Counted from the first letter of the stretch, positions 13,601-61,750 are shown. The stretch: DNA of 64,000 nucleotides from Tubiluchus corallicola (GCA_030141605.1 JAQGDQ010000542.1:62001-126000); one strand, 5' to 3'. A program made the numbers and translations. The notes: generated by a model from the letters alone, not told the origin.

Positions 13601-16600
13601 ATCTTACGCTTACAAATTACTAGGAACGAACGAAAACAACTGCTTACCATAATGATGAAAATTCTTACCAAAATGATAAAAAGTCTTATCATAATGATGA
13701 AAATTCTTACCAAAATGATAAAAAGTCTTATCATAATGATGAAAATTCTTACCATAATGATGAACCGGCAATGGCTCACCCATTGATAATACCATAGAGA
13801 GAACCATAGCAGAATAACACAACCTCTTTATATCTGAAATAAACATGTCCATATATATAGTAGATAAATTCATAATGCAGCAGCAAATGACTGTTAGGCC
13901 AGCAATAAAAATATTCCTGTTTCCGTCTAATCGCACAAGTTATATTTTTTGTCACACAGTTAAGTTCATAATTTTATAATTTTTTTGTATATTCATACTT
14001 ACCTGACACAGTCATGTAAAAGTGTATATTTTGTATATGCTTTAGTAATTCATATACTTACCTGACACAGTCAGACAAAAGTGCATTTTTTAAATTTAAA
14101 ACGTAAAAAGCAATAGTTATTATAACACCGTTGTTTCGGTGAGGACACAGACGTGTTTTTCTATGGCTAACTCTTGGCCAGGGTTGCCATTTTGTATCAT
14201 GCTGATTATCATATTGGAGGCTAAAAAATATCTTATTTTCTGCCAAATCAGCATATTAACGGCCGAGTGTGTTGCTATTTATATCATAATTATCAGAACA
14301 TATGCTCATACCGTACAAAAAAGAAACTATATAATAATAAATAATAGTACAAGCTAGAAATGCGAAACAAAAAAACAGTGTGCATTTAAAAAAAATTAGA
14401 ACAGTACTTTTAACCAATAGGAAATAAACAAACTTTGATTTCAACTGATTTTAAATATTTCACAATTCAGCTTTAAACATTCACAAAGCTCAACAATGAC
14501 AATGTTAGAGCTTAAATCCTCCCTCCTACTGATGTCTTTTGGATTCATGAGATAACACAGAAACATTTTTTGTTGCCAGCCTTATATTGGTCAATATAAT
14601 TATATAAAAAGCTATTTGAGTGGTATCTATGGTAAACACATATATGTAAAATTGCATTAAAAATAAAAATCAATTCAATCTACAATTACAATAAAGTTTT
14701 ATTAATAAAATAAAATTAAAGCAATATTTAAAAGCCATGTCAAGAGCGTCAAGAAAAATATGACCAAAAATTTTAACTCTTTTGAATCTGTCTATCCCAA
14801 ACAAACAATATATGCCCCTTGATACGTAATTTCAATTCTTGCTTATCAGAATGCTAAAATGAAACCTTTTAAGCACAGTCTGCAAGAGTCTCTGCATCAA
14901 AGGTTTTGACAACTAGTTTACTCGGATTCAAAATGTTCGTTTCTGACAAAAAATTTGGAACGGCAAAATTTCTGTGAAAAGATTTCAGCAAAAAGGAACC
15001 TATAACTTAAGCTTTCCACAAAATGAATAAAATTGTATGGCAATGAATGCAACCTAAGTGTCCAAAATCTTGCAAATGGTGCAATGAAATATTATACAAG
15101 CAGTTTCGAAATTACATTTAAATATTTAAACACAATTTGGATAGCCAGTTAACATAGCGAAAGCTTTTCTAATGCACCGTCTTGTCAGAGTTAGTTAAAT
15201 TATTGAGGCGACTTTGCAACTTAAATTAAAAGTACACTATGTAATCCTTTTTCAGCAAGAAAAGATACTGATTAGATATTGATTAAAAAAAATATTGAAT
15301 AAGTATTAATTAAGTATCAATTGATACCTGATTTGTTGCTCTTCATGTCTCTTACAAGTTCTAGTGGAAGCACGGAGGTGAGTAAGATGGAGATAATCTT
15401 CTTGTCTAATTCACACAAAGCTCCAAACACTTGCAGCATCAGTATTCTTATTGACACTCGGCTTTCCTAAAACAACATTCTCAACAATAATTACAGCCTT
15501 CTTACAACTTGTCTAAATAGGTGTTTTTTACTATCAATTTGTACATGCTACAGCACAATGCAAGCCAGAATGCAGAACTCAGCGGGGGTCTATTTAATGA
15601 ATTGCTTGTGGCGTTACTGGAGCCCGACTCATTATTAAAGAAAAACCGGACGATTGTGTAGACATTAGTTCAAAATAAAGAATGCTCTAAAATATTGAAA
15701 ACTGCAATAGCTTATTTTAAATCAAAGCTTAGATTAAATAATAATTACTTAGGATACTGACATTTTGTTAAACTTTCAAAGCTATGCGCGGCTCAGGTGA
15801 ATCTACTAAGATTGGCAATGGCACTTTTTTGTCACGTGTGCGTGGCCGACAAACAGAAGACAGTACCGTAATAACCATGATCATGAACTGCAGTGCTAGT
15901 TTCATGACGTCATATGATGCAGAAGGCATTTTTGTGACATCATGCATTTAAGCAGTACTATAACACACCACAATGTGCTTGACGCACAAGGGAAAACGCC
16001 TGCCATTGCACAAACAGTGGTTAGTTTCTGACATAAACAAGAGCTGTGTTCGGTTGCCGTTAATTAACTTTCTAAGCTAATTATTCAAACATAAGGAACA
16101 ATTGTTAACTTTTATAGGCAACAAAATGTATATTTTGGACAGTATTTTTAAAATGAGATTGAGTCTAAACAATCGTCCGGCCTTCCTTTAAGATTTGTCA
16201 CTGAACAACCAGAAGTCTATATATATATATATCTGGTTTAAAGCAAAACCATATACATATCCTCTCATTATGAAAAAACACTTTTAAATATTAAAATATT
16301 TATGAGTGATGCTGCCAGGCTGCCAGGAACTATTATTGAATCCAAACGACCACATAACCCTCACGTAGAGCGTGTACCTAAAAGTTTGGCCGTGAACTCG
16401 TTGCTAATACATTTTGTTCAGCAAGTTCGAACGCTAAAACTATATTTCTTGCTATGTACAATAAGACAGACTCAACTATTACTCTAATAAAGCCAAAAAT
16501 TCGCTGTATTACTCTTATCAAACTGTGGTCAACTCTGGTCAGCAGTCTCGAAGGGACACCATGCAAAAAGCAACAAATGCAAGTTTATGGCGTATACGAT

Positions 16601-19600
16601 TATATAGAACTATACAAAAACACTGATATGAAATACAAGGGATTTAAATGTAAGTAAAAATGAGATTTGTTTTTAAATGACAAACATATCTATTTACTGA
16701 CAGTTACAGTCAACGTCGGATATAAGGGACACCTTGGGACTGAAAAAAACTGTCCCTTATATCCGAAGTTGAGTCAGACCGAGGGTGTATCTAGACCTGT
16801 ACTTTTCTGTACTTTTACCCATATTTTTATAGATTATTGCTATACATTCAGTGCAAACAGTGTGTAGGAAGCTCTTTCAGCGATGCAACATGTATGTGAC
16901 CACGGAAACCAAACTGTTCGAAGGACGAGTTTGCAAAAAGTTGAGGTTAAAAATCGATCAATTTCGCTTTGATCATAGGGTCCCTTATATGTGAGGTAAT
17001 TTACTTAGGTTTCTATTACGCAAGACCTGAAGATATCGTACCTTATAAACGAAGATTTTTACATATGAAAAACGTTACAAAGAATCGGGACCGGTGTTGG
17101 TGGTCCCTTATAAGCGAGTACCTTATACCCGAGGTTGACTGTATTTATTTTTGCTCCTTTCATACACTTTCTTCAGTGCTCATCCAATAAGTTTAACTCT
17201 GTACAATGATAAAGTATCTTTCTTATTCACAGCGGTTTATTTTAGCGTACATTTACCTGGTATACATAGTAGCGTGATTAGCAATTTAACAGCAATCAAT
17301 TACCGAATATTTGGACTGCTCACAAAACTTAACATCTAATTTCTGATTCGAGAGCAGACCTACCATCTGATAATACTGCACTAGATTGAGAATACACTCG
17401 TAACTGTCCCTGGTTATCACCATTCGGCATGTTGCTGGATTGGCATTTGTCTAAGAAAAAAATCAATAATTAGTACCGTGAAAGATTATAACCTCACGTT
17501 TACGTTTCTTGCTATAGTTTTTTCAGCTGCGACTGTTGCTAATCGATTACTTAATGCGATTATTTGAATTTTCAAATGCTTGTACACAGTTTTATGGCTG
17601 TCTTAATGGTTCTGTGATTGGTTAAAGCAACATGGTTGAGATGTTACTGTTTCAATGGACATGTTTTGAAAACTAACTTCTGAGCTTCCCTTTGGCTTAT
17701 TAACATAGTAACCTATAATTAAGATTGAAGCCCATCATTAAGACAGCAAATAAAACATACACAGATAGTATGAATAGAATGACTCTAAATGCAAAACTTG
17801 ACTAATTAAAGGCATTTCTCTAAACATAACTTTGATGTTTCAACTTCACTTCCTTAATATGGTTTCCGAAACATCATTGGTAAAACATAAACAAACACAG
17901 ATGCATCAGTGTTTTTTCTTTACACTTGGCAATTTTCCTAACAACACTTTATTGACTTTAGCTCTAAATGATTCTTAACAATAGAAATAAATAAAAATAT
18001 TTGCCCTGAGCTTAGCCAAAGTCTTTAAACAATTGCACCAGCTGACAGATGATGTCAGGCCACAGTGTCACCGCATTATAGTGTCTCAGCAACAAAACCT
18101 AATATGATTGCTCACCAAGATCCAAAATTTCTGTTTCCTGTGCTGTCCCTCGTTTATGTAATGTGCTTTCCGATGAGGTCAAAAACTCGTGTTTTTAAAT
18201 GTCAAATTAAAACACTCTTATTCTTAGAAGCTTTTTAACGTTTCGTTATACTAATATCTGTCTGGATGACGTACAAGTAAAGTTAGTCTTTTAAATTTAT
18301 ACATATCTGTTGTCTTTAAAATGCGGTTTCTAGATTTTTTGTGAATAATAAAAAAATTGTATGCCAAAGAGCAGTTTTAGGCATAAATCTGTAAAGTTAA
18401 GTATAAATTTCAGGCAATAACATTCTCATTACAGTAAGTTCTCGCTTAACGAGTCCCTATTTAGTGACGTTTCATTTTAACGATGCTCAACATCTAACAC
18501 TTTTTTCACATTTCATTTTAACGACAATTTTTTTACTTTGCCGAAAGCCAATTTTCATTTTATCAACAACTTTTTTTACTTAATTTGAAGCACTAAAATG
18601 GCATAATGCATAATTCTGTTTTAAAAGTGCATCAGTAATGTAAATAATGCAATTATTATACACATTTTTGCTTCTCGACTGACTACTATACCAACTGCCA
18701 TTCTTATCAAGGGAGACCTGTGAACAAACTTTGTGTATAGAAATTCTACCTGCAATCTGTTCCTATAACAACCAGAATACATAGTAAATGACACCACTCT
18801 AATATGGTAAAACTCCTAAAGTGGCCTCATGCAGCGCTTGACTTTGACTCCGCAGTGTTTATTGTTTAATGGCTGCCTAGGCTTAAACTTTAATGAAAGA
18901 GAAGCCACTAGCTAGATACATATTGGTAAGAAAGAAAGGTGGTTTCAAGCAAGCAGAAAGAAATTAATTAGCAGAAACCATAAAAAAACTCATAAAACGT
19001 TTAATTTTTTTCCAGTGGAACATATCTCAATTCTTTTACATTAGTTTCCATGGCAGTTTTGGTTTCGTTTGACTACGTTTAGCTTAACATCGCGTTTTGC
19101 TTGAACACATTAGCGTAGTTAAGCGAGGACTTACTGTATTATTTAATGTAATTCAAGGATCTTACCAAAATAGATAAGAGTTCCTCTAAGTACTCAAGAA
19201 TAACGGCCTCATCTTCATGCAGAGCCCAGCTTCTCTGTTGACTATCGTCTTTACAGTCTCTCAACTCGGAGAAAATCACCAGCAATCTCTTAGCGTCGTG
19301 CGTGTTCAAACCGTCATCACATTGAGTGTTAGTGACCACATCTAGCACCTTCTGCAGCTCGCCGGCTATTCCAGGCATGGCCTCGCCGACCCGAGACAAC
19401 ACCGTAACCACGGCGACCTTGGACTTCTCGTAACTCAGACTGGTGTTGACGCGCACTGACTCGATCAGGTTTGTGCCGAGAGACATGTGCGCATCCTCTT
19501 TTAACTTTATCAGTGACTTGTCGGGAGACATAGGCGACGTCGTATTATCTTTCGAGCAAATAAAATTCACTGTTTTCTTTGTCGATGATTTTAATGATTC

Positions 19601-21610
19601 ATCACTTGGGACGTTTTTTGTCTCGGGATGTCCAGATGTCGTTAACGGTTCGTCGATAATTTCCATATAGTCCGGTTCATAGACGTTATCATACGGTGAA
19701 TGTACCGTCTCCTTTCTGGTCGTCTCGGATGATCTGCTTTTATCTTCAGATTTGACCAAAGACGACAAGCGATTTGGAGGGGGAGGAGGAGCGGGCCTAG
19801 CTTTGTGAGGACGAATGGGAGGTTTGATTTCTCCTCCATTTGTAAAGGCAGTGTGCGAGGTTCGAGTGTGGGAGGACCGTTGAAGGGAAGGCGAATGTGC
19901 AGGTGGAGGCGGTGGAGCGTTTCTCTTCCGAGGTGACAGCTGAGTAGATGAGCTAACATCTTCGTAACCGAATCGTCGATCTGCAAGTTTTCTGAAATAT
20001 AAAAAACACCATTTTTAAAGATGAAATCGGAAGGTTCCCGACTTTTGATATAGCGACCTCATGTCTAATACTGACAACATAAAATGTGGGATTAAGAGGT
20101 GTCGTTGGTGAATTAACACTAAAACAAAAAAGGGAGGTCTACCTCTTACGAGAAAAACATTTGGGAAGCAGCAGAAGCACGTGGAAAAATGACAAAGCAC
20201 TAGAAAACTGTACTCTTATATCAACAATACTGAGATCATAAGAATTTACAAGTTTAGTAATTAATCAAATTTAAAATAATCCACTGCAAGCGGATCTTTT
20301 TAAATTTGTATAACTACTAAACGTTTTATCCCATTTTAACTTAAAATTACTCATTTTTTGGTATTTCTCATAACTGAAAACTGCACGAAGGTGCACATTT
20401 TCTTTTCCTTGCTGTTTGTCTTATATAAATACAATATTTAATTTCCAAACATAAGTTTAGACTCATTTTAATTTATTTCATTCATGTATCTTGTAACAGG
20501 GTAATGGTGCTTGTCACTGTATGTATATTCTTTAAAAAAAATTATATTTTGTAACTTTCTGCCGTGCTGTAATTCAACCCTTTGGTTGTAACAATGATGC
20601 CCAAACTGATATGTCCTAAGCCCTAATATTAATACCATTAAGAATACTTTTTGAACAAAGATGTTTAATTTTATTTTATGTTTGTTTTATATCGTAATGT
20701 ATCGATTTTTATTTTAGTATTAGAACTGACATTTGAATAATAGCATACTAAAATAAGATCTGATATGCACAGAACCTAAATGACGAATGCTTAAGTTCTA
20801 AAATTCAATTTATTTTCAATATAATAAACTAACAGAAGGTTTTGCTGTTGCTGTAAAGTATACTTTCCCCCGGCAGCCATTGCTGATAAATGGATTGCTT
20901 CAATAGCGCGGTCAACTGACAACAGTACGTCGTCACACGGTACCTAGAAAGTACATAACAAGTTAATTACTAGCTCACTAATTACTAAAAATACAAAAAT
21001 TATATTGTGATTAACACACTCACCTTACTTAAATGAAAAAATGATTATAATTATGCATGCTTCTATAGATAACTTAATAATGTAAATAAGGATGAAGTAA
21101 ATAATGTAATAATAGCAATGGTATAAGAGCAATGAAACTGAAAGTTGAGAAAGGAAAACATCATATGTAATTACGACTTTGAGTGAGCCTTAAAGAGTGA
21201 AAAAATTTTAATTACGAATTTGAATTATCTGATTATCTGTCAATGCACCAACATATATATATATATATGTGTGTATGTATATATACATACATACATACAC
21301 ACATGTACACACATACATATATACACTACACATATATACAATACATACACTCATGTATATAAACACACACACGCATGCACACATACACATATATGTACCC
21401 ATATTTAAATGGGGGAGAAAACAGTTTACTCTTCTTACTGACCTCATCTTTAGTAATGTAAGTCACAGGTACAAAACCTATTTTCCGTTCAGCATTTTGT
21501 ACTTGCCACCAATTCTGGTTAGAAGAATCCAAAATAACAAAACTTTCGCCTTCATTGAAGCTCAAACTTCTGGCATCATTTGCACGAAAATTATATAGCG
21601 CTTTGTACAT
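10498..21610 (-). CDS. NCKIPSD: NCK-interacting protein with SH3 domain (SPIN90/WISH/DIP), 9 coding exons, 667 aa
   Basis: Exons 21610-21443, 20943-20834, 19991-19166, 17450-17364, 15466-15328, 13833-13753, 13145-12924, 12201-12029, 10695-10498 join to 2004 nt. N-terminal SH3 (MYKALYNF..WW..GFVP), DRAIEAIH..GGKYT, proline-rich segment, DDSQQRSWALHEDE, LPLELVRDM, AFNLHF and YTNDAMVLIDIIVRQL motifs are typical of SPIN90. Confidence 0.95.
11033..11680 (+). repeat. Minisatellite, 57/59-bp unit, about 11 copies
   Basis: ggtttaactgtacaactcaaattactcaacagttacgtattcgtatcaactctagctac in tandem. Confidence 0.95.
12029..12201 (-). CDS. NCKIPSD: NCKIPSD exon 8
   Basis: ttccag|(D)DPVRIFNHKPKPQDSVLKFF..YTNDAMVLIDIIVRQLSDLPPGDK|gtatgg. 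Confidence 0.94.
12924..13145 (-). CDS. NCKIPSD: NCKIPSD exon 7
   Basis: tttcag|(E)HLNEEFISFLIDNIE..VILAFNLHF..TEKVMLLVNRG|gtgagt. Confidence 0.93.
13250..13571 (-). mobile_element. Partial inverted copy of the TTAA MITE family
   Basis: Reverse complement ttaa|aggaaaaccagacaattg..ttagttcaaaataa matches the left end of 15639-16187. Confidence 0.7.
13642..13762 (-). repeat. 21-bp exon-end/5' splice-site tandem array (6 units) at NCKIPSD exon 6
   Basis: catcattatg|gtaagaatttt and variants. Confidence 0.9.
13753..13833 (-). CDS. NCKIPSD: NCKIPSD exon 6
   Basis: tttcag|(D)IKRLCYSAMVLSMVLSMGEPLPVHHY|gtaaga; donor tandemly repeated downstream. Confidence 0.9.
15328..15466 (-). CDS. NCKIPSD: NCKIPSD exon 5
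   Basis: ttttag|ESRVSIRILMLQVFGALCELDKKIISILLTSVLPLELVRDMKSNKS|gtatca. Confidence 0.93.
15639..16187. mobile_element. Non-autonomous TIR element with TTAA TSD (Kolobok-like)
   Basis: ttaa|agaaaaaccggacgattgtgtagac ... gtctaaacaatcgtccggccttcct|ttaa; RR...YY termini with TTAA duplication. Confidence 0.8.
16707..17141. mobile_element. Tc1/mariner(pogo)-type MITE
   Basis: ta|cagtcaacgtcggatataagg ... ccttatacccgaggttgactg|ta TIRs with TA TSD. Confidence 0.82.
17364..17450 (-). CDS. NCKIPSD: NCKIPSD exon 4
   Basis: tcttag|TNANPATCRMVITRDSYECILNLVQYYQM|gtaggt. Confidence 0.92.
19166..19991 (-). CDS. NCKIPSD: NCKIPSD exon 3 (proline-rich region and start of helical domain)
   Basis: tttcag|KLADRR..APPPP..RPAPPPP..DDSQQRSWALHEDEAVILEYLEELLSIL|gtaaga. 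Confidence 0.93.
20834..20943 (-). CDS. NCKIPSD: NCKIPSD exon 2
   Basis: ttctag|VPCDDVLLSVDRAIEAIHLSAMAAGGKYTLQQQQNL|gttagt. Confidence 0.92.
21254..21395. repeat. Compound (TA)/(CA) microsatellite
   Basis: Direct inspection. Confidence 0.85.
21443..21610 (-). CDS. NCKIPSD: NCKIPSD coding exon 1 (SH3 domain)
   Basis: MYKALYNFRANDARSLSFNEGESF..WWQVQN..GFVPVTYITKDE|gtcagt; acceptor at 21626-21627 implies an upstream non-coding exon. Confidence 0.93.
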
Positions 21611-23712: not shown

Positions 23713-23751
<39 letters not shown>

Positions 23752-24879: not shown

Positions 24880-25098
24880 TTAAATGTGTTGTTTAAGGAT
24901 GGCATAGCCTTAGCTTAACTCAGTATCTTTATAATGCTACAGAATAATTTTCACCACTTTGTACTAGATTGCAGCATAAATGACCATAAATTTTTTTGGT
25001 CATGACATTGTGGTGATTGTATTGTTTTTGTGTTTTGCATTGTATTGTATTGTGTGTATTTTGATATCTGGAAAGAGGTGCAGCAAGTTACATAAGTA

Positions 25099-25689: not shown

Positions 25690-25705
25690 TACACACACAC
25701 ACACA

Positions 25706-25781
<76 letters not shown>

Positions 25782-25832: not shown

Positions 25833-25879
25833 ATCAGTATTTAAATACAACATTAAGTCGTTAGTGTATTAGCGATACT

Positions 25880-27225: not shown

Positions 27226-27695
27226 GTCGTGGTGACTTTTGCGACGACAGTAAAATGAAAACGAGAACTTTTCCTTGTGCCATAACGCTAAATTTATTCC
27301 TTTTACGAGAGCGCAATATACATGTTTTCTTTTCCATATCAACTCAACAACTAACTAACTTCTTTTAACTAGGTTAACTCCTTGAACCAGTTCCTACAGT
27401 TACACGTAAATTAACTCACAATGGCTTCTTTACGAAGCCCAAACTTCACGACAATACCTGCTTACAAACAAAACGGTACTTAACATGATTTTTCTACATA
27501 TATTATAGTGCACAAAAGCGAAGTAAAGATGACATAAAAGTAGGAAAGGTTCTGTTTACCGTGATTCTATTAAGTGGTGTCTACTGTATATTCGTAATTC
27601 GTATAAAACATTTTTGAGCTGCAAAATTGGTTTTAGCATTTAAATTTTCTCTATTTTTAGAAGTTTTGAATAGCTGACTGCCCCAAAAAATAAAG

Positions 27696-27873
27696 ATGGC
27701 ATGCGAGTCAAGTATTTTGCAACAGCTGAGGGATCTTGCAGCTATCTGTGTGAAATCTGATTCCACTGAAATTTATTATCCCAACACTGGCAGACAACCG
27801 GAACCTGTGCTACAGCGCCGTCTTCGGGAGATAACCTTTTCTACATTGTTTTCTCACTTAGCTGGACCACTGG
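27696..27873 (+). CDS. TUBGCP6: TUBGCP6 exon 1
   Basis: MACESSILQQLRDLAAIC..RRLREITFSTLFSHLAGPL|gtatgt. Confidence 0.85.
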
Positions 27874-51800: not shown

Positions 51801-54800
51801 ACTAAAACACCAAACTTCGTAAAACTGATTTACTGACTTACTTATTACTAAACCCACTAAAATATTGACCTTCGCACTCGAGCCTTCAACGGTGGAAAGT
51901 TGGCAGTGTATCACTTTAGTAAGAAATAGGAGAAACCTTAGACATTCACTTACTACCAGTTTCATTTCCCCTCTAGTTTTCATATTCAAATCAGGATTAG
52001 CCTGATGTCTTTGTTCCTGAATACACATGCATAAACTTTAATGCCCTTGGGTTTTATAATTTTTGACAGTTATTGGCAAATAATCTTTGAAAGTGTTATC
52101 CGTTCTCATATAAACAATGATTAGGTAACTTCCTGTCTTAGCTCAGAAGCGTCCCAATTTAGGTTTTAGATTAACTTATTTGTCCATTTAACACAATATT
52201 ACAATATACGAACTATTACAATTACAGAATTGACATGCACTGCAATTTAATGAGCGTAGCAAATTGTATAAGTTTCGGTTCTGTTCACACAATGGCTAAT
52301 CCTGCACATCTACATTGTAATCACATTTGATGTTTTCAGCGTAAGTCTAGTAAATGCTGCTGTACTGCGATACTTCATGGTTGAACTGGATTTGGCAGAA
52401 AACTTTGCGGCATTGCGAAGATTTCTGCTATTGGAAGATGGTGAATTTGGGCAGATGCTGAGTGATTTGCTGTTTGATAAGGTGAAAATTTGTGCTTTTT
52501 TGTTATTTTAACATATGATGCAAATCTTATCCTTGATAAATTATTGCTAATATTTTTCATCTATTATTTTTTTATTTCACCTTCTACTATATTTTATTTT
52601 TATTATTGCGAAAACTATTGCAGAATTATAACCTAATAAAAAATTGTGTGAAAAAGTTAAAAGTGTGATATTAGATTTATTTCGTTTTAGATAGTACTTG
52701 AAGTTGTCTCATTGCAGTCTTGAAAGTGCTTCTGCATTGTTGTGAAACAATCGTCTTTTTTATTGTTAAGCAAGAGAATTCAATATTCAAAAAACAATGC
52801 ACTGTTATGGATACCTGGTGATGTGGCTCAGTATTAGTATGCTTGCTTCTTACCCGGGTTGTTGTGGATTCAACTCCCGGCCAAGTCATATCTAAGACGT
52901 AAAAACTCGATCTTTGACCAGGCATGCAGGTTTATCGAAGCAATGTGCGGGGTAATAAAAATCAGAACCACCTTGAAAATAAGTATTGAGGTACTTAAGG
53001 TGTTATTCCTGAGTTATGTCCTAAATGATATTATTATTATTATTATTTTATACATTAGTGTTACTTAAGTCATGGTACTTATGCTGTTGATATCAAATTT
53101 TTGTCGTTAAACTTTAAATTACTCATGATCTCAAAATGGATCTGCAAAAGTGTGTTATTACAAGGCACAAAAAATTAATTAGTTGTTTGATTGAGATGCC
53201 ATGACACTCATCTGCTTAAGTTAACATGTTCATTAAGCTCACAGATGATCGTTTCAACTTAGCAGTCATTTTCAATGCTAAAAATAAGGCAAAAAAGGAA
53301 TATTAAGTACATTTGATACTGCAATATTAACGCACACAATACAAAACCAAACACTAGAAATTAAATTGTCAGAATAATCGTCGTTGTAACTGGAAAGAAA
53401 TTCAAAAGAAATGTAAAAGTTACCTTATGTATGAGATTCAGAAAATATTGCAACACAGTAAACCATTAGTGCAAGTCTACGTAATGAAGATCCACGGTTA
53501 CAAGCATTAGAATGATAAAACAAAAACTTCTACACAGACCACTACAGGACCTGATGGAAGAGTCAAATTGGTCTAGAACACAGAGATAGTTAGATCTGCA
53601 GCATGAATGGTGCTACTGATTATAGTGGGATGTTAGGAACTGAGCGGCGCTTCATAATATACAAGGCCTCTTCTATCTTGAAATCCTGAATAGTTCTTGT
53701 ACCATGTAAGATGTTAAATGCAGAGTCGAGTCAGTGCCGGATTAAGGCATGGGCTTTATGGGCTGCAACCCAGGGCCGCAGAGTTGAGTCAGTGCCGGAT
53801 TAAGGCATGGGCTTTATGGGCTGCAACCCAGGGTCTCTGCCAGCTGAGAGGCCTCCAGAGGTTAAGTGCAATTAACTTACTGTGAAAAGTTACTAACTAC
53901 AAAATGAGAGTAGAAGTATGCTGAATTATCTCTTTAAAATGGTTCCATTATTTAATATGCTGTATAATGATACACTGGAATTATTTTCTTATCCATTATT
54001 TCAACTCACAAGGCACTGGTAATCCTAATTACATTGACACAATGTTGTAGTAATTGAGGCCACATCTCCTGTGACAGAACTAAGAAATCTTTTTGTTGTG
54101 AGAGACTTCCACCCATCTATGTGGTCCTATGTTGTCATTAGGTTGTAGAAGTTGAATAAACTGATTTGATGAATCCAACATTCATGCTTTTGTAAATTGT
54201 CACTGGTGCTCTACAAAATCAAAATCCGCGCTGAGTCGAAGCTATAAGAATAACATCTCATTATAGATTGCCGTGTGTTCCAATCCAGCAGAATTCTTCA
54301 CGCCTCTTGTTCTGCAACCACTTCTTAACGAAGCACTACGATCTTCACTTTACGGCGAGTCTCCTCATGCGGACAAGGTGAGCTTTATGTTGAAGCGTGT
54401 GCCTGCGAAGCTCTTTCCTACAGGTGAGTAACAGGTGCTGAATACATTTTTAGGGGAAGCTCTTAAATGAATTAACTGATTATTTCTGTGTGTGTGCGTC
54501 AAGCAGTGTAATATACATTTTATGCAAATAGTGCAATTCTGCTTTTACGCAATAGTTGTTAATTTTATTACACTGAATATTTAGGCAAAATCAGCTGATG
54601 ACTCTATTAAGACAGGTTCTTAAGCTTTGTATTGATCACGTTTGTATCAAGTGTTTTGTTGCATTTTGAGTAAATTTATCAAGATTTTGTGCTATTTTGT
54701 TCAGTAAATGAAACGTTTTTCATGGGGTGCTAGCAGACTTTTCTCAGGTAATCAAATTATCTGAACATTTCAACAAAAACAAAAAACCAACACCTTCAAT

Positions 54801-57800
54801 TAGCTAAACATGTTATTAGCTAATTAGCCAATTAAATGATGAACATCGATTTAGTGTGTGCTGATGTTGTATGTATAAAAAAGTCCTACAATTTCATCTA
54901 ACAGCAAGCTAGAGCTTAGCTGAAACAGTAGGTTGCCATGGTGTTCGTAACATGCAGCCTGTTATGTGCATTGTTCTGCTGTACATTCCAACAATGCAGT
55001 ACGGACTGCTCATTGGAAAAAATTGTGTTGCTATGGCGACCGAGTGATCTTTTGTCTGCCATCTAGTGGTAACTTAAAAAAGCATTGCAAGTGTGTAATT
55101 GCGCTATTTGCAGTTGTATATATATATATCTTTATATTATTTCAGCAATAGATACGTTTGACTGCCTGGAGCTTCACTACAAGGTTGACTGGCCGTTAAA
55201 CATCGTCATAACAGAAAGCAACATGTCTGCTTACAACTCAATACTCGCCTTCATGTTGCGCTTGAAGCGGACAATTTGGGTTCTGAATGACGTCTGGCAT
55301 AATTTGAAAGCTTGTTCGGCAGTAACTGATATCGGAGAGTCGTCACAGTTTCGGAAGCTGCAGTTGTACAGGTAGATTTTTTGTACTATTGTGGAATTGT
55401 TCATTTATGGTGACCTAAATACTTAAAATTGCAAATTTTGTTTGTAGAGAGCCCAAAAAAGCTTCAGGGAGAAAAAAGGAGAGACAAAAAGAGGAAGAGA
55501 GTGAGAGAAAGGTGGAAAGGAGAGACAGTGAGACTAGATCAGTTTGTAACAAGTTTTTTCATTGGTGGTTTGACAGGCACGAGATGCAGCATTTCGTACG
55601 AGCAATACAAGGTTACATCGCTAATCAAGTGGTTTACGTCTCCTGGCAAGAGTTTCAAACAGAGCTAGAGCAGCAGGTGTGTAACCTTGACGACCTGCGC
55701 AGGTGTCACACACAGTATCTTCGTAAAGCTGTTCTCAGGTAAATGAAAGGTGACAGTTTTGAACCCCCACATGAGTGCCACGCCTAAGATAAGGTTGTCA
55801 TAAAAATAGCATGTCCTTGTTGATGACCTAAGTATGTTGATTACTCATGTGTGGGTAAACAGTTTAGCCTAATTTTTACGTTTTTGCTCCTATATCAAGT
55901 CTTTAAATGATCACAGCTTTTTTAACCATACCACTATCTTAGCCCTACCGCAGGTGTCTACCCTGCTTCAGGGCCGGATTGTTCTATAGGCTAATATAGG
56001 CTGCAGTCTAGGGTCCTTCCAACTTAGGAAGCCCTGCTAAAACATTTTCAAATATAAATTTGGGTTTAGTGGTTATAAAAAATCTATTTCTTCGCTAAAC
56101 TTTTGCTGAAATATGTGCTAATTTGGTATGCAATAGACAGTTGAATAGTGGTATTTCTTAAAGAATATTTTTATTGACAAACAAAAGATAGATCTTATAG
56201 TTACTAAAATATGAAATATGTAAATGCTACTAAAATATTTCATGGGTAAAAGTACTCAAATGGGATGCAGGGGAGTTGTGGGGTGGCTCCATCTGAGGGT
56301 CCCTATAATTTCATTTGCCTAGGGAGCTCAGAAGGTCACAATCCTACCCTGCCCTTCTTACTTACATGACTCTATGTGTCATAGTTTTTGACTTAACACA
56401 ATGTTATGCATCCAACTGACCAATGTCCTATACTCTTGAGCCTTTGACTGTGAGGTCACCATTCACTGTACCATTGTCAATGTCCCTAGCCCAGTTGTTT
56501 TGGGCTGGTTTCGTGTGTCTAGCCCTGTGTGTTTGTAATCTAATATGAATTTTTCATGTCTTCACAACAACAACAACAAGGATGCGTTACAACCTCTGAT
56601 TACTGGATCCAATATGCAGAAAACTCACCATTGTGACCAGTGAGATTTTTCCTGCAGTTTAGCCCTGTGCAAGCAATGATCCAGCTTTCCATGGCAAGGT
56701 CTACTCAATGTAGATGATTGTGGCATGACTGGGATCTAGATCGTTATCAAGAATAATCTTCTAACATGAGACTATGGACTAGCCGGGGGGAGGGGCGGCT
56801 CAATCATGTTCGGCTGTGTACGCCTTCCTCCAACATGGGCAATGTGGCAGCTGAAACTGCAAAGAAGCTGAAGATCACCTGTTCTCTCGGTTGCAGGGCT
56901 TACCAATTTAATTATCAAGCTCATTATCAAAGATAGTTCTTGTCAAAAACACTTAATTTTATTACGATGAATGATTGATTTTTATTCTTCGAAAACATTT
57001 TATCTGATTTTAGCGATTTAATTGAATGTTTTTAACTGTATGTAAACAGTTCGAATTTTGTAAAAATAGGCGGGAGAGCAAAACAGGGCGACCGAATGAC
57101 CTAAATTCAATTACTTTTGCATTTTCGATGCAAACAAACACTGAATTGAGTTTAATTTGCAACAATTTTCAAAATGTATGTATTTCACTTTTTTATCAAA
57201 AAAAAGAACAAGTAATTGAAATATGCGCCTAGTTATTAATAAATATTAGATTTTTACGATGACGATGAAGCAAGATTAATTAGTACATGTTTAGTAATAA
57301 AGGCTTACTGGTCTATTATAAAAGACCTACGTTATGTATATATATAGGCAATAATCCTAATTCAGCTAATTGCATGACCAATTGAGCAACATGCCAGCTA
57401 TACTATAGACTTGAATGACAGTTACATAGGTAATTGATTACGATGCAAATTTACATTGACATTCAAGAACCAGTTTGCACGAGCAAATCCATGCAAACAG
57501 GGTAAAAAATACTTTAACTTGACACATGCCATACTGACGTAGTATTGGTAGTTCTCGACAGTCCCGTTAAGATGAGGCACTGAACTGAATGGGGTGTCTC
57601 AGTCATGTTCGTATATGTGTGCATCTTCTCTCGGCAAAGCACATATTCTTGGGCAGTACAACGCTAGAAATTACGAAGAACCCACATGTTGCCAACCCAT
57701 TCTTTGATCAGGCACAACCATACTTAACTTTACTTACTAGATGTAGACCTGCGGCGATTCATCTCGCTCATGAACAGAGTAAGCACTTCATTCCATTATG

Positions 57801-58692
57801 GCTTGTATTTTCAGATGTTTACTGAATAAGAAGGCCAGTCCAGTAGTGAAGATAATCAATGACATCTTTCACGTCATCCTCGAGTTTCACGAACAAGTAC
57901 TCTCATACTCCTGGCGGTGGAACGAGGAGGCGGAGGAACTCCAGCACCCCCTATTTCCACGAATTGTGACCAGTTACGAAAACTTTCAGCGGTACTCAAC
58001 TTTCCTGTTTAGACGTAAGTAATTTTTTCTTGATTGGTTAGAAGTTGCGCTGACAAGCCACTGATATGGAAATTTCTAGTTTTTTGCTGAATTACTGCTG
58101 TGTTTACTTGTCTTGAGGGCAGAATGCAAAATGCTGCAGCCTGCATTGTAAGCAATTTTATTTGACCATTACTGCTTTCTGATAAAATACAGGATAGATT
58201 TTAAAATACTCCTGCTTGCTTATAAATGTGTGTGCCAGTTGGCTCCCTGTTATCTTCAAGAGTTAATTTCATGGAATATTCCACAGTGTAATTTGCCTTC
58301 AGCAAATTCAATGAACTTGGTCAACCTAGAACAGAACTAGTCAATTGTGGAGGACGGTAATTCTCGTCTGTCGCTCCTCTGTTAGGAAAGCAAACGCTGT
58401 ATGGTAGTCAGAGTCATTTTCAATTTTTATAACATGCCTCAAAACCTTTTTATTTCAAAAAAAAACTTTTAAGTTTTTGTAATTACTTAATCAAATTAAT
58501 TTAAATCAATGTAGGTTGTGATTGCATATTAAATTTTATATGTAGAATTGTAATGTATGTATTATTTATCTTTGCTTTTAGTTTTATCGTAGTGTACAAC
58601 TTTTAAACCCATTCCTGGTATGTTTTTACTCACACTGTGTAGCTATTATCATTGTGAAGCCCTACAGAATTTTATGGATTTGAGGCTAAAAA

Positions 58693-58782
<90 letters not shown>

Positions 58783-60167
58783 GTTATTATTCTTATTAGT
58801 ATTAGTATTATCATCATCAACATCATCATTACAGTAGACGCCGCTTAATAGATTCACTTTGGAACCGAAATGTTTTGACCCAATTAACCGATTGAACCTA
58901 TTAACCGATGGTTGTAGTATTACTGGTGTAGCAGTATGAGTCATCAACTTACTGCGCCCTGCAAAGGTTTTTAATGAATTTTAGTAATGCCTAAATTCTT
59001 TTGTGCAGTTAAAAATCTAAAAAAAGTATTTTAAATTATTAATTTAGGTAAGTGAGTTAGAATAAATTAAAAAGTATACTTTTCTAAATCACACAAGTCT
59101 TTTTTTGCAAAATTTACAAAAATTCCTTCAAAGTCGGCTGTTCCATTTTCTCCTGAAGAAGTTGACTCACAAAGTTCTCGTAATTATAAAAACGTTGAAA
59201 ATCTGTTGCAATGTATTTTCCTAAAACATTTGCTGGCGGCGCACTGCGAGTTGGTGGTACTGTCAATAAAATGCACATGAATGAAAACAGTTGCAGTAAA
59301 ACACCATGAATACTATGTAGAATAAACAAGTTCACTAGTGTTTTGCAGGTTTAATAGTTTGCTTATTGTATTATGCTCAATAAGTGTGTTCATTAGTTCA
59401 CCTGTTTAGTGGTGTTGACAGGTAACAATGGGCTTCACTCGTCTCGCCTGTTTGTGGTGTTGACAGGTAACAATGGGCTTCACTCGTCTCGCCTGTTTGT
59501 GGTGTTGACAGGTAACAATGGACTTCACTGGTCTCACCTGTTTAGTGGTGTTGACAGGTAACAATGGGCTTCACTGGTCTCACCTGTTTGTGGTGTTGAC
59601 AGGTAACAATGGGCTTCACTGGTCTCACCTGTTTAGTGGTGTTGACAGGTAACAATGGGCTTCACTGGTCTCGCCTGTTTAGTGGTGTTGACAGGTAACA
59701 ATGGGCTTCACTGGTCTCGCCTGTTTAGTGGTGTTGACAGGTAACAATGGGCTTCACTGGTCTCACCTGTTTGTGGTGTTGACAGGTAACAATGGGCTTC
59801 ACTGGTCTCACCTGTTTGTGGTGTTGACAGGTGACAATGGGCTTCACTTGTCTCACCTGTTTGTGGTCACACGCTGTTGCGTTTCTGTATGTTGTAATGT
59901 TGAAACACTGTAACAAAATTTACCAAACACACTTAATTTTAGAGTAGGTGTGATGCCAAGCAAAATTAATTCAGAATTTGATGGATACATCTCCACTTGC
60001 TGATCAACTATTATCGTTGTAAGCATGTTGCATCATGTAACCCATCACTTTGTTTTTTAATTGCAGTGCTGCACAAACTGGCTAGTCGTGGATACGAGAC
60101 ACACTTGAAAATACTTCTCAATATTCTCAACCTCAACGACTATTATTCTGCACAAACGGAGAGCTGA
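27696..60167 (+). CDS. TUBGCP6: Gamma-tubulin complex component 6, 24 coding exons, 1875 aa
   Basis: 24 GT-AG exons join in frame (5628 nt). Motifs: LLLSLAGS, WETIG..YMTEAG, GRIP1 (GLVYQSFLSGLR, FPTGISLLSYLY, CKPYLCFIRDWVFHG, VPSFL..CGK), coiled coil, long insertion with HGHASDA, GRIP2 (FLLLEDGEF, LHYKVDWPLNIVI, RHEMQHFV, LNLNDYY). Confidence 0.95.
28790..28930 (+). CDS. TUBGCP6: TUBGCP6 exon 2
   Basis: ttccag|(G)TASG..YKMRLHRDYDRAACLEDCIDRLK|gtgtgc. Confidence 0.85.
29756..30072 (+). repeat. Compound pentamer microsatellite (TTATA)n-(TTACA)n-(TTACC)n-(TTACA)n
   Basis: Direct inspection. Confidence 0.95.
30081..30273 (+). repeat. 25-bp minisatellite (cttagtgctcatgtccagtagaatg), about 8 units
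   Basis: Tandem units ending about 23 bp before the exon 3 acceptor. Confidence 0.9.
30297..30436 (+). CDS. TUBGCP6: TUBGCP6 exon 3
   Basis: tttcag|(E)VAGK..SMIQLLLSLAGSDE..VTRQ|gtgtta. Confidence 0.85.
30677..30777 (+). CDS. TUBGCP6: TUBGCP6 exon 4
   Basis: ttctag|KLRKLRLNLPSGPPVYGDSNYRCVDDLQYMQYP(R)|gtaacg; supplies the phase 0-to-2 bridge between exons 3 and 5. Confidence 0.75.
31753..32038 (+). CDS. TUBGCP6: TUBGCP6 exon 5
   Basis: tttcag|ELLQNG..SALFKAKVG..QRSSE|gtaaag. Confidence 0.8.
33600..33772 (+). CDS. TUBGCP6: TUBGCP6 exon 6
   Basis: ttgtag|EKTKFFEPDEGF..NIWERALDY..TWETIG|gtaagc. Confidence 0.9.
33806..35029. mobile_element. Composite TTAA-flanked element: MITE left stub, captured NCKIPSD segment, full MITE
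   Basis: TTAA 33802-33805; TIR stub 33806-33846; copy of 15001-15638 at 33852-34494; MITE 34495-35029; TTAA 35030-35033. Confidence 0.85.
34182..34320 (-). pseudogene. NCKIPSD: Duplicated orphan copy of NCKIPSD exon 5
   Basis: 139-nt copy of 15328-15466 with both splice sites; I see one synonymous change (CGA>CGT); antisense to the host gene TUBGCP6. Confidence 0.9.
35180..35387 (+). CDS. TUBGCP6: TUBGCP6 exon 7
   Basis: ttacag|RPGPTEKKYMTEAG..LVADLVNLMCGIESETF..DT|gtaaat; cagtag NAGNAG acceptor. Confidence 0.92.
35408..35836. mobile_element. Long imperfect palindrome (foldback/MITE-like)
   Basis: gtagttaattaataacaaggtctatta pairs with taatagaccttgttgtgattaattaactgc; cattctcattttagtatt pairs with aatactaaaatgtgaatg; centre about 35632. 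Confidence 0.75.
35978..36087 (+). CDS. TUBGCP6: TUBGCP6 exon 8
   Basis: ttctag|EQQKFCIAPGLYISGIDPE..AECGTFFY|gtgagt. Confidence 0.92.
36475..36660 (+). CDS. TUBGCP6: TUBGCP6 exon 9
   Basis: tcatag|LIDWS..QGLVYQSFLSGLRNYLRQYQACIL..QI|gtgagt. Confidence 0.93.
37609..37877 (+). CDS. TUBGCP6: TUBGCP6 exon 10
   Basis: atttag|YLSHLC..FPTGISLLSYLY..CKPYLCFIRDWVFHG..EFMM..NAK|gtgagt. Confidence 0.94.
38399..38710 (+). repeat. About 52-bp minisatellite, 6 units
   Basis: ttagcaactgcttccttggttactgcgttgtttctgtgatgttagatttgtg in tandem. Confidence 0.9.
39267..39403 (+). CDS. TUBGCP6: TUBGCP6 exon 11
   Basis: ttccag|(D)ERFW..VPSFLRDLAEEMYVCGKTVYLMRLNCPE|gtaaat. Confidence 0.94.
39860..40230 (+). mobile_element. 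LINE (RTE-like) 3' remnant
   Basis: ORF 39895-40230 GIRWPKKISNKDLYE..RLTWIGHMLRLP..AANRESWRR is a typical post-RT LINE C-terminus. Confidence 0.78.
40680..40807 (+). CDS. TUBGCP6: TUBGCP6 exon 12
   Basis: tttcag|HYICNLGNLPPALTITFS..LAEE|gttcgc. Confidence 0.88.
40845..41342. mobile_element. Tigger/pogo-like MITE
   Basis: ta|caatgttccctcgctt ... tagcgagggaacactg|ta. Confidence 0.8.
41801..41904 (+). CDS. TUBGCP6: TUBGCP6 exon 13
   Basis: taacag|ILRDEAKLAQVKEDRRK..KMQ|gtacaa. Confidence 0.85.
42538..42760 (+). mobile_element. tRNA-derived SINE-like element
   Basis: A-box-like gctcagctgacagagc and B-box ggttcaaatccc, followed by non-tRNA body; boundaries approximate. Confidence 0.45.
43123..43211 (+). 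CDS. TUBGCP6: TUBGCP6 exon 14 (coiled coil)
   Basis: ctgcag|(D)QQEQKRKAEDAAKRQRLEEIREQMEEQKE|gtatag. Confidence 0.87.
43953..44068 (+). CDS. TUBGCP6: TUBGCP6 exon 15 (coiled coil)
   Basis: ggttag|RKTRIKQREADED..DEADLERKV(R)|gtaaat; donor amplified about 20 times. Confidence 0.87.
44046..44737 (+). repeat. 34-bp exon-end/5' splice-site tandem array (about 20 units) at TUBGCP6 exon 15
   Basis: gccggtcttgaaccaaagtcag|gtaaattactct; first unit is the real exon end. Confidence 0.95.
45716..47721 (+). CDS. TUBGCP6: TUBGCP6 exon 16 (2006-nt exon, large low-complexity insertion)
   Basis: cttcag|SELIEYY..AREQLAIWKTQRYRL..HGHASDA..KSAPL|gtgagt; lies within ORF 45657-47750. Confidence 0.93.
47711..48060 (+). 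repeat. 25-bp exon-end/5' splice-site tandem array (14 units) at TUBGCP6 exon 16
   Basis: tgcaccattag|gtgagtttattagt. Confidence 0.95.
48541..48645 (+). CDS. TUBGCP6: TUBGCP6 exon 17
   Basis: gcatag|(D)VSTIDEGWLERRYHWEEI..LSPRL|gtatgg; phase-compatible but weaker donor. Confidence 0.72.
49442..50120. mobile_element. hAT-like MITE, degraded
   Basis: caggggcgtagccagg ... cctacatcactg ends with G-rich and C-rich subterminal blocks. Confidence 0.5.
50277..50439 (+). CDS. TUBGCP6: TUBGCP6 exon 18
   Basis: ttgcag|GRPSG..YLPLPVLLERCITVPLQT(H)|gtgagt; donor amplified 9 times. Confidence 0.9.
50413..50799 (+). repeat. 43-bp exon-end/5' splice-site tandem array (9 units) at TUBGCP6 exon 18
   Basis: atgcatcaccgttccactgcaaactca|gtgagtattgttagtt. 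Confidence 0.95.
52340..52481 (+). CDS. TUBGCP6: TUBGCP6 exon 19
   Basis: tttcag|VSLVNAAVLRYFMVEL..LRRFLLLEDGEFGQMLSDLLFDK|gtgaaa. Confidence 0.95.
52817..52985 (+). mobile_element. tRNA-derived SINE-like element
   Basis: tggctcagtattag (A-box-like) ... gattcaactcccggcc (B-box-like), then a non-tRNA body. Confidence 0.45.
53720..53860 (+). mobile_element. hAT-like MITE end with an internal tandem duplication of about 59 bp
   Basis: gagtcagtgccggattaaggcatgggctttatgggctgcaacccaggg occurs twice. Confidence 0.6.
54267..54423 (+). CDS. TUBGCP6: TUBGCP6 exon 20
   Basis: ttatag|IAVCSNPAEFFTPLVLQPLLNEALRSSLYG..LFPT|gtgagt. Confidence 0.92.
55146..55371 (+). CDS. TUBGCP6: TUBGCP6 exon 21
   Basis: tttcag|IDTFDCLELHYKVDWPLNIVITE..QFRKLQLY|gtagat. 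Confidence 0.95.
55577..55738 (+). CDS. TUBGCP6: TUBGCP6 exon 22
   Basis: tgacag|HEMQHFVRAIQGYIANQVVYVSWQEF..YLRKAVL|gtaaat. Confidence 0.95.
55969..56351. mobile_element. hAT-like MITE
   Basis: cagggccggattg ... caatcctaccctg TIRs; 8-bp TSD ccctgctt/cccttctt. Confidence 0.75.
57815..58014 (+). CDS. TUBGCP6: TUBGCP6 exon 23
   Basis: tttcag|CLLNKKASPVVKIINDIF..HPLF..YSTFLFR|gtaagt. Confidence 0.94.
58694..58800. repeat. (ATT)n microsatellite
   Basis: Direct inspection; explains the poly-N ORF 58672-58947. Confidence 0.95.
59398..59866 (+). repeat. 45/46-bp minisatellite (about 10 units) containing CAG|GTAACA
   Basis: tcacctgtttagtggtgttgacaggtaacaatgggcttcactggtc in tandem. Confidence 0.93.
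60067..60167 (+). CDS. TUBGCP6: TUBGCP6 terminal exon
   Basis: ttgcag|(L)LHKLASRGYETHLKILLNILNLNDYYSAQTES*. Confidence 0.94.
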
Positions 60168-61750
60168 TAACTTGTTAACAGATGGGAGTAGTATGTTAAT
60201 TTGATCGTGCGCCACTTCTTTATTCTGCAGAAACGGAGAGCTGATAACTTGTTAAGAAACAGATGGGAGTAGTATGTTAATTTGATCGTGCGCCACTTCT
60301 TTATTCTGCAGAAACGGACAACTGATAACTTGCTAAGAAGAACTTGTCACAGATGGGAGTAGTATGGTTTATTTGATCGTGCGCCACTTCCTTATTCTGC
60401 ACAAACGGAGAGCTGATAACTTGCTAAGAAGGATTTGTCACACATGGGAGTAGTATGGTTTATTTGATCGTGCGCCACTTCCTTATTCTGCACAAACGGA
60501 GAGCTGATAACTTGCTAAGAAGGATTTGTCACACATGGGAGTAGTATGGTTTATTTGATCGTGCGCCACTTCCTTATTCTGCACAAACGGAGAGCTGATA
60601 ACTTGCTAAGAAGGATTTGTCACACATGGGAGTAGTATGGTTTATTTGATCGTGCGCCACTTCCTTATTCTGCACAAACGGAGAGCTGATAACTTGTTAA
60701 CAGATGGGAGTAGTATGTTGATTTGATCGTGCGCCACTTCCTTATTCTGCAGAAATGGAGAGCTGCTAACTTGTTAAGAAGGATTTGTCACAGATGGGAG
60801 TAGTATGTTGATTTGATCGTGCGCCACTTCTTTATTCTGTACAAACGGAGAGCTGATAACTTGTTAACTTGTTACAGATGGGAGTAGTATGGTCGATTTG
60901 ATCGTGCGCCACTTCTTTATTCTGCAGAAACGGAGAGCTGCTAACTTGTTAAGAAGAACTTGTCGCAGATGGGAGTAGTGTAATTGATTTGATTGTGCGC
61001 CACTTCTTTATTCTGCGCAAACAGAGAGCTGATAACTTGTTAACTTGTCACAGATGGGAGTAGTATGGTCGATTTGATCATGCGCCACTTCTTTATTCTG
61101 CAGAAACGGAGAGCTGATAACTTATCAGGAAGACCTCGGAGTAGTATAGTGGATTTGTCTGTGCGTCACTATTCTTTATTCTGGGAACAGAGAGCTAATA
61201 ACAGTTGTGAATGGCAGTAGTAGTCCATCTAGTTTGCAACAATTACTGTGCATTCGTTTCAACATTCGCAACCTTGCTGATGACTTGTTGAAAGACATAA
61301 GAGTGGTATAGTTGATTTGCCTGTGCTTCACTTTTCTTTATTATGCAGTAACAGAGAGCTGTTAACTTATTAAGATGACCCCTGTTATAGATGGGAGTAG
61401 TATAGTCGATTTGCTTGTGTCCCAATTTTCTTTAGTCTATAAATACATGATAACAGTCATTGTGGGTGTAGTATAGTACATCTACTCTGCATATGACTCA
61501 ACATTCTCAATCTCAACTGTTATTCTGTAGGGAGATGATGACTTGTTAAAACACATAACAGTTGTATAGTCGATTTGCCTGTGCGTCACTTTTCTTTAAT
61601 CTATAAACTGGGAGTTAATACAACCATTGATGATACTAGTATAGCTGATTGGTCTATACAACACGTTTGTTCATTCTACATAAATGGAGCTTGTCAGCAA
61701 GACATCAGTCACAAGTGGGAGTAGTATAATCAATTTGCTGTGCGTCACTT
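60143..61750 (+). repeat. 77-91-bp tandem array seeded on the TUBGCP6 stop codon (about 13 clear units to about 61200, then decayed copies)
   Basis: ttattctgcacaaacggagagcTGAtaacttg..gggagtagtatgg..gatcgtgcgccacttc. Confidence 0.92.

What the first reader, a model, noticed from the sequence alone, without database searches (positions are those of the whole stretch)
13642..61200. Recurrent tandem arrays seeded on exon 3' ends and 5' splice sites (splice-donor amplification)
Seen: four arrays with unrelated sequences, on both strands and in two genes, have the same build. Each unit is the last 10-27 nt of a real exon plus the first 11-16 nt of the intron including GT. They are 21 bp x6 (13642-13762, -), 34 bp x~20 (44046-44737), 25 bp x14 (47711-48060) and 43 bp x9 (50413-50799). 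In each, the genuine exon end is the first unit and the array extends only downstream in the direction of transcription. That is 4 of 37 modelled coding donors; none of the modelled acceptors is spanned by an array. A fifth array is seeded on the TUBGCP6 stop codon, and three more repeats contain donor motifs. Inference: either a transcription- or splicing-coupled mutational process targets donors (Pol II pausing or R-loops at the U1-bound site, RNA-templated repair, re-integration of microDNA circles), or selection tolerates only this geometry. Either way the spliceosome must pick the first of up to about 20 near-identical donors. I do not know of a description of this as a genome-wide phenomenon, but I cannot search the literature.
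Basis: partly seen in the sequence, partly recalled or inferred. Interest (0 to 1): 0.88.

Follow-up and report, generated by a model that had tools for sequence, protein, structure and literature searches.

The report
Exon-end minisatellites repeating splice donors
In two genes of an invertebrate animal, likely a mollusc, four exon ends and their splice signals are repeated 6 to 20 times into the next intron, a repeat type already known from lancelets, chickens and humans that is likely harmless because the first signal is predicted to be the one used.

Summary
Four arrays (21 bp x6, 34 bp x20, 25 bp x14, 43 bp x9) start in the last 11-27 nt of an exon of NCKIPSD or TUBGCP6 and repeat its donor. 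A fifth spans the TUBGCP6 stop codon. Of 11 large arrays, 4 span donors against 0.26-0.33 expected (P about 1-2e-4, in a window picked after the fact). The kind is known: lancelet 'mirages', human F7/CBS VNTRs, and 'exon stuttering', screened genome-wide in chicken. This scan has noted it in at least 16 other genomes, at acceptors and stop codons too. Donor specificity is not shown: 4 against 0 acceptors gives P=0.125. The downstream polarity follows from keeping the reading frame. In the 34-bp array the copies were expanded from one another, not re-templated from the exon. Most likely these are ordinary duplications expanded at DNA level and filtered by first-donor splicing, with some unexplained excess at exon edges. 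No RNA covers the arrayed donors. The organism is likely an aculiferan mollusc, AT-rich unlike the bird cases. What stays open and is cheap to test is whether exon edges, and donors in particular, are enriched genome-wide.

The parts
10498..21610 (-). NCKIPSD/SPIN90 gene, 9 modelled coding exons, 667 aa
   Evidence: Pfam SH3_1 and SPIN90_LRD; homologues named NCK-interacting protein; open spliced model
13753..13833 (-). NCKIPSD coding exon 6 (81 nt) whose donor at 13753|13752 seeds the 21-bp array
   Evidence: homologues collinear across the junction; donors at the same codon in loci L006, L007, L016
13638..13763 (-). 21-bp donor array, 6 copies (11 exon + 10 intron nt), variant order ABCBCD, 4 of 6 with GT; all later donors in frame, first stop 141 nt into the intron
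   Evidence: X1 contig 13725-14192 with 0 differences
27696..60164 (+). TUBGCP6 gene, 25 modelled exons, 1891 aa
   Evidence: Pfam GCP6_N, GCP_N_terminal, GCP_C_terminal; homologues; open spliced model
44046..44737 (+). 34-bp donor array, 20 copies, donor 44068|44069 (23 exon + 12 intron nt in copy 1); order A BCDE BCDE BCDE BB FGHIJ; 18 GT, 1 GC, 1 AT; stop at intron nt 2
47711..48060 (+). 25-bp donor array, 14 copies, donor 47721|47722 at the end of the 2006-nt exon (11 + 14 nt); 12 GT; stop at intron nt 27
   Evidence: donor supported by frame and consensus only
50413..50799 (+). 43-bp donor array, 9 copies, donor 50439|50440 (27 + 16 nt); 9 GT; stop at intron nt 2
60143..61200 (+). 77-91-bp array seeded on the last 7 codons and TGA (60162-60164) of TUBGCP6, about 13 copies in the 3' UTR region, decaying to about 61360
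59397..59867 (+). 45-bp intronic array with a donor-like CAG|GTAACA; first unit is AG-[25 nt]-GT, a possible unmodelled microexon, not needed by the protein
1..446 (+). 36-bp array in the CACNA2D-like gene with a donor-like GCA|GTGAGT on the transcribed strand; its start lies outside the window, so seeding on an exon cannot be tested
30071..30274 (+). 25-bp intronic array ending 23 nt before the acceptor at 30297; does not span it (nearest acceptor-side case)

Best explanation
These are locus-specific minisatellites whose first unit is the end of an exon plus its splice donor; they likely began as ordinary short tandem duplications, likely grew by copying among their own units, and are likely tolerated because splicing is predicted to use the first donor and discard the rest with the intron. 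Shown: array anatomy, open frames through copy 1, shared derived variants and higher-order blocks. Inferred: (1) birth by a blunt or 1-nt-overlap duplication of 21-43 bp; (2) growth by slippage, unequal exchange or gene conversion; (3) a selective filter: duplications wholly inside exons are purged, those crossing a 3' edge (donor or stop codon) leave the first, correct signal in place; use of a later donor would give a premature stop in 3 of 4 arrays; (4) the excess over random placement reflects a modest real bias to exon edges in general, inflated by the window having been chosen for it.
For: Open frames and collinear homologues with copy 1. 34-bp array: copies 2-15 differ from the exon copy by 3-5 changes but by 0-2 from each other's commonest form, in a 4-unit block repeated three times; 21-bp array has a 42-bp block twice. 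Birth junctions of the 25- and 43-bp arrays show 0-1 nt of overlap. Stop-codon array has the same 3'-edge geometry with no donor; 5 of 11 large arrays lie on 3' edges of coding sequence. F7 minigenes use only the most upstream of identical donors (PMC1557585). Lancelet mirages do not disturb splicing and occur at both boundaries (PMC3087553; PMC3902484). Chicken: 236 introns in 115 genes, donor or acceptor side (PMC12954441). In 18 intron-bearing NCKIPSD loci fetched by protein homology alone, 1 of 11 non-coding arrays spans a donor (L010, a different donor from the window's) and one ends on an acceptor AG (L014).
Against: The filter alone predicts 0.26-0.33 donor arrays, not 4; even tripling the expectation leaves P=0.019, so step (4) is needed and has no direct support. 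The blind loci give 1 observed against 0.30 expected, P=0.26, which neither confirms nor excludes an excess. No acceptor array lies in the window. The intron part is 10-16 nt in all four arrays (post hoc P=0.034) and about 11 nt in L010, which the model does not explain. Unchecked scan notes report acceptor arrays with 39-46-bp units in molluscs, so the filter against acceptor arrays cannot be strict. In human CBS and 6-16 the nearest decoys are partly used (PMC1557585). No RNA covers any arrayed donor.
Confidence: 0.65

Rival explanations
1. A transcription- or splicing-coupled process (Pol II pausing, R-loops, breaks near the U1-bound site) raises the birth or growth rate of duplications at donors specifically, with the downstream break 10-16 nt into the intron.
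For: 12-15-fold excess of donor arrays in the window; 0 of 37 acceptors; narrow intron part, P=0.034 post hoc; 2 of 6 non-boundary arrays carry a donor-like motif on the transcribed strand, expected 0.34, P=0.04; scan notes holding donor words outnumber those with acceptor words 45 to 12 (unchecked and wording-dependent).
Against: 4 versus 0 is P=0.125. The stop-codon array needs no donor. 0 of 24 small (under 4 copies) repeats span a donor, where a 12-15-fold higher birth rate would predict about 4, though many of those are chance or low-complexity hits. Copies derive from other copies, which rules out repeated RNA-templated or circle re-insertion from the exon in the 34-bp array. F7's unit is 4 exon + 33 intron nt, so the 10-16-nt distance is not general. 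Acceptor arrays are in print.
Confidence: 0.13
2. There is no bias to exon edges at all: this is a minisatellite-rich genome (11 large arrays, 8.9% of the window) and the window is a lucky draw picked out of a very large scan.
For: P of 1-2e-4 is reachable among many thousands of animal windows; effective neutral target is smaller than assumed because much intron DNA is high-copy repeat (depth table); blind loci P=0.26.
Against: The pattern recurs in print in lancelet genes and in unchecked scan notes from at least 16 genomes; donor plus stop is 5 of 11, P=3e-6 to 1e-5.
Confidence: 0.14
3. The decoy ladders are selected regulators that tune TUBGCP6 and NCKIPSD output through unproductive splicing and NMD, or add 7-residue steps to NCKIPSD.
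For: 39 of 45 decoys keep GT; later donors give premature stops in three arrays and in-frame 7-aa steps in the 21-bp array.
Against: Young, homogenising copies keep GT without selection; an immediate stop is common at these donors anyway (8 of 32 within 3 nt); the orthologous NCKIPSD donor has no array in L006, L007 or L016; the in-frame array is the one with the largest share of lost GT (2 of 5).
Confidence: 0.05
4. The arrays are assembly artefacts.
Against: 4-10 distinct unit variants per array in ordered blocks, with end copies 4-6 changes from the centre in the 34-bp array; X1 contig matches into copy 2 with 0 differences; same build in an unrelated animal.
Confidence: 0.03

Closest known systems
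Lancelet 'mirage' minisatellites (Adh3, globins BflGb6/BflGb9, troponin C, PGBD5). Seen: passages of PMC3087553 and PMC3902484; Canestro et al. 2002 only through these citing papers
   Same: Tandem copies of an exon-intron boundary, many keeping the splice signal, several per gene, homogenised centre with diverged ends, regular splicing reported intact; Adh3 units 10-72 bp overlap the 21-43 bp here
   Different: Different phylum (likely mollusc); all four boundary arrays here are on donors, whereas lancelet has both sides; splicing and length variation not measured here
'Exon stuttering' of chicken dot chromosomes (Hron et al. 2026, PMC12954441). Seen: abstract, Results passages, whole Discussion, the screen's Methods, part 1 of 13 of the supplement
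   Same: Lateral part of a coding exon with its donor or acceptor copied in tandem into the adjacent intron; 1-44 copies; strictly local origin; accompanied by purely intronic arrays
   Different: Tied there to GC-rich dot chromosomes; here arrays are 23-45% GC in a 30-42% GC window with interspersed repeats. 4 of 36 introns here against 3.4% of dot introns (different detection rules). No donor-versus-acceptor count in the parts I read
Human boundary-spanning VNTRs: F7 IVS7 37 bp x5-9, CBS IVS13, 6-16, LMNB2, PDGF intron 4 (Borensztajn et al. 2006, PMC1557585). Seen: abstract and passages of introduction, results, discussion
   Same: First monomer spans the donor; identical pseudo-sites follow; the most upstream site is used
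   Different: Single loci in different genes; here three donors of one gene. F7 unit is mostly intron (4+33 nt)
Internal tandem repeats at exon-intron boundaries in human segmental duplications (De Grassi and Ciccarelli 2009, PMC2812944). Seen: passages
   Same: Repeats at boundaries, possible source of new introns
   Different: There they often change the transcript; here the model predicts an unchanged mRNA

Membership tests
mirage / exon-stuttering minisatellite | Direct tandem repeat whose unit spans a real exon-intron boundary | tested here: met
   Four arrays; junction supported by homologues for three, by frame for one
mirage / exon-stuttering minisatellite | Extra copies lie in the adjacent intron and many keep the splice signal | tested here: met
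   39 of 45 decoys keep GT
mirage / exon-stuttering minisatellite | Local origin: unit unique to the locus | tested here: met
   Within the window the multi-copy hits of each unit fall in its own array; only one or two short hits per kilobase bin elsewhere. Rest of the genome not available
mirage / exon-stuttering minisatellite | Regular splicing is kept (boundary copy used) | tested here: inconclusive
   Frames open only or best through copy 1; no RNA contig covers an arrayed donor
mirage / exon-stuttering minisatellite | Copy-number variation among alleles or individuals | tested here: inconclusive
mirage / exon-stuttering minisatellite | Concerted evolution of inner copies, ends excluded | tested here: met
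   Clear in the 34-bp array, partly in the 21-bp array; the 25- and 43-bp arrays are uniform to both ends
avian sequence stuttering (strict sense) | GC-rich chromosomal context lacking interspersed repeats | tested here: not met
   Window GC 30-42%, arrays 23-45%, retroelement remnants and high-copy repeats present
F7-type donor VNTR | Pseudo-sites functional but silent while the first site is intact | not testable with these tools
   Needs minigenes or RNA reads

The most novel reading that the evidence does not exclude
In this lineage a position-specific mutational process makes the 3' ends of exons hot spots for minisatellite birth or growth, 10-fold or more above intron background, with one break fixed 10-16 nt behind the donor; this would be a splicing- or chromatin-coupled route to tandem repeats in an AT-rich genome, distinct from the GC-linked avian case.
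Probability: 0.13. Interest if true: 0.75.

Novelty: new member of a known kind. Interest (0 to 1): 0.3.

Why it matters
As it stands: a dense example (4 of 36 donors plus a stop codon) of a known repeat kind, in a further animal group and in AT-rich DNA, which argues that high GC is not required for exon stuttering. Such arrays mislead gene prediction and offer natural tests of first-donor choice. If a genome-wide count showed a true donor-specific excess with a fixed breakpoint distance, it would link splicing or exon chromatin to germline mutation, and would bear on intron gain by boundary duplication. None of the papers I read gives a donor-versus-acceptor or observed-versus-expected count, so that test is still worth running.

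Tried and rejected
No whole genome is held for this window, so no genome-wide count was possible; scan notes for this genome and for look-alike stretches were empty. No RNA holder was listed for 43100-51000; this is no evidence on expression. The share of words held by X1-X4 (0.81-0.30) says nothing about the arrays themselves. X6 (RNA is a guess, about 88-92% alike) gave pieces that stop at modelled edges 12029 and 19991 but none over an arrayed donor. A homologue search with the CACNA2D-like exon found nothing, so the 1-446 array could not be tied to an exon end. Selection against decoy GT: 6 of 45 decoys lack GT, from few events; too few to test. 'Decoys lead to a stop' as a sign of design: rejected, 8 of 32 donors have a stop within 3 nt anyway. 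'Downstream only' as a sign of transcription coupling: rejected as forced by frame. The 14000-14075 donor-like pair lies in bins with repeat-level depth and one X1 contig skips 57 nt there; not counted as an array. Tree is the quick version; the careful search did not finish; 41 of 55 homologues were used, no lancelet among them. Literature searches for an enrichment or donor-versus-acceptor count found none; the library lacks most subscription papers, Canestro 2002 was not readable, and the per-gene plots in the chicken supplement are pictures, so such a count may exist unseen.

Full report
Setting. The window is animal DNA of 30-42% GC with the 3' part of a CACNA2D-like gene (Pfam VGCC_alpha2), NCKIPSD on the minus strand and TUBGCP6 on the plus strand. 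Spliced models give open frames of 667 and 1891 aa with GT-AG introns throughout. A quick tree of the NCKIPSD model with 41 of the 55 homologues places it beside a chiton, outside gastropods and bivalves but in their clade (SH-aLRT 94, not starred): likely an aculiferan mollusc. No whole genome was available.

The observation. All four arrays exist as described. First units hold 11+10, 23+12, 11+14 and 27+16 nt of exon and intron; copy numbers are 6, 20, 14 and 9; 43 of 49 copies keep GT. Homologues run straight across the junctions at 13753, 44068 and 50439 when copy 1 is used; 47721 is supported by frame and consensus only. Three other animals' loci have a donor at the same NCKIPSD codon, without an array (L006, L007, L016). 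The fifth array starts in the last 7 codons of TUBGCP6 and repeats the stop in units of 77-91 bp. An unbiased junction search finds copies at 4 of 36 donors and 0 of 37 acceptors. One X1 contig matches from the exon into copy 2 of the 21-bp array without a difference but does not formally bridge it; the other arrays have no read check. Their ordered variant structure argues against artefact.

Chance. I took every TRF array with period 15 or more and 4 or more copies (11 arrays, 8.9% of the window) and asked how often one unit placed at random outside wholly coding positions would span a donor. Expected 0.263, or 0.332 with GC matching; observed 4; P=8e-5 and 1.9e-4. With the expectation doubled or tripled P is 0.002-0.005 and 0.019. 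The window was chosen for this pattern, so these values overstate the case. Donor against acceptor, 4 to 0, gives P=0.125. Among 24 small repeats none spans a donor (expected 0.3). As a blind check I fetched 21 NCKIPSD loci by protein homology; in the 18 with introns, 1 of 11 non-coding arrays spans a donor (L010, 18 bp, 13 or more copies, at the donor that is array-free in the window), expected 0.30, P=0.26; one array ends on an acceptor AG (L014) and one in-frame array lies in coding sequence (L011).

Mechanism. Growth is among array copies. In the 34-bp array the order is A BCDE BCDE BCDE BB FGHIJ; copies 2-15 lie 3-5 changes from the exon copy, including a one-base loss that would break the frame, and 0-2 from the commonest form; the last five copies have drifted 4-6 changes. 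Repeated templating from the exon, as RNA or as circles, would reset copies to type A; in the 25- and 43-bp arrays type A recurs, so there this test is silent. Birth junctions of the 25- and 43-bp arrays have 0-1 nt of overlap; the 34-bp array is followed by a worn 8-nt echo of its start that may be an old microhomology or a partial copy. Polarity needs no special cause: if the mRNA is to stay intact, a donor array must use its first copy and so lies downstream; the same holds for a stop codon. Later donors give a stop at intron nt 2, 27 and 2 in the three TUBGCP6 arrays and in-frame 7-aa additions in NCKIPSD. That the first donor wins is inferred from F7 minigenes and lancelet RT-PCR as reported; no RNA here covers these donors. 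The filter does not explain why so many arrays sit on exon ends. Candidates are selection of this window, faster turnover of mid-intron DNA, and a bias of recombination or repair to the edges of conserved exons (inference, untested). Two hints favour something more specific: the intron part is 10-16 nt in all four (post hoc P=0.034), and 2 of 6 non-boundary arrays carry donor-like motifs on the transcribed strand (P=0.04). Both are weak.

What is known. Lancelet 'mirages' are tandem copies of exon-intron boundaries on either side, reported in Adh3, globins, troponin C and PGBD5 (passages of PMC3087553 and PMC3902484). Human F7, CBS, 6-16, LMNB2 and PDGF carry donor-spanning minisatellites (passages of PMC1557585). 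A genome-wide chicken screen found 236 such introns in 115 genes, over 90% starting at the exon border, donor or acceptor side, mechanism left open between replication-stress repair and meiotic gene conversion (PMC12954441). PMC2812944 covers boundary repeats in human duplications (passages). The scan's own unchecked notes list 45 donor-type findings in at least 16 genomes, 12 acceptor-type in at least 5, and several stop-codon cases; one says donors and acceptors are hit equally in its genome. My nine literature searches found no enrichment or donor-versus-acceptor count; the chicken supplement's plots could not be read as data.

Verdict. Real, well built, and a new member of a known kind. 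It differs from the avian case in being AT-rich and from the lancelet cases in its one-sided count, which is not significant. Interest 0.3; the donor-specific mutational reading gets 0.13 and is testable with one annotated genome.

Noticed in passing
window 33852-35034 versus 15001-16192: A 1.2-kb, 90.4% identical copy of NCKIPSD coding exon 5 with its flanking intron DNA lies inside TUBGCP6 intron 7, antisense to TUBGCP6; part of the segment is a very high-copy repeat, suggesting capture by a mobile element.
   Followed up: partly
window 59397-59421: First unit of the 45-bp array is a 25-nt stretch between AG and GT; if spliced in, TUBGCP6 would end early after LFRL with a short new tail. Possible microexon or chance.
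   Followed up: partly
window 14000-14075 (minus strand): Two copies, 58 nt apart, of a perfect CAG|GTAAGT donor motif in mid-intron; region has repeat-level depth and one X1 contig skips 57 nt.
   Followed up: partly
L010 8607-8847: 18-bp donor-spanning array, 13 or more copies, in frame, at another NCKIPSD donor in an unrelated animal.
   Followed up: yes
L014 3545-13629: Locus with at least seven minisatellites; a 40-bp array ends on the acceptor AG at 5704 and a 35-bp array starts about 20 nt behind a donor.
   Followed up: partly
window 45716-47721: TUBGCP6 has a 2006-nt exon encoding a long, low-conservation insert without Pfam match.
   Followed up: no
window 25857-27255; 2150-2434; 39841-40227: BEL/Pao retrotransposon remnant between NCKIPSD and TUBGCP6 (Pfam Peptidase_A17); two short frames that look like LINE reverse-transcriptase tails (recalled resemblance, no matching Pfam hit).
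   Followed up: no
window 29759-30274: Compound 5-mer microsatellite grading ATTAT to ATTAC to CTTAC runs directly into a 25-bp minisatellite that ends 23 nt before an acceptor.
   Followed up: no
runs X5, X6 on window 19700-19990: Two runs with the same species label as X1 differ from the window by about 10-12% in coding sequence and share alleles, hinting at a cryptic species or a mislabel.
   Followed up: no
window 601-21610: CACNA2D-like and NCKIPSD genes are neighbours here; human CACNA2D2 and NCKIPSD are both at 3p21 (recalled, not checked).
   Followed up: no
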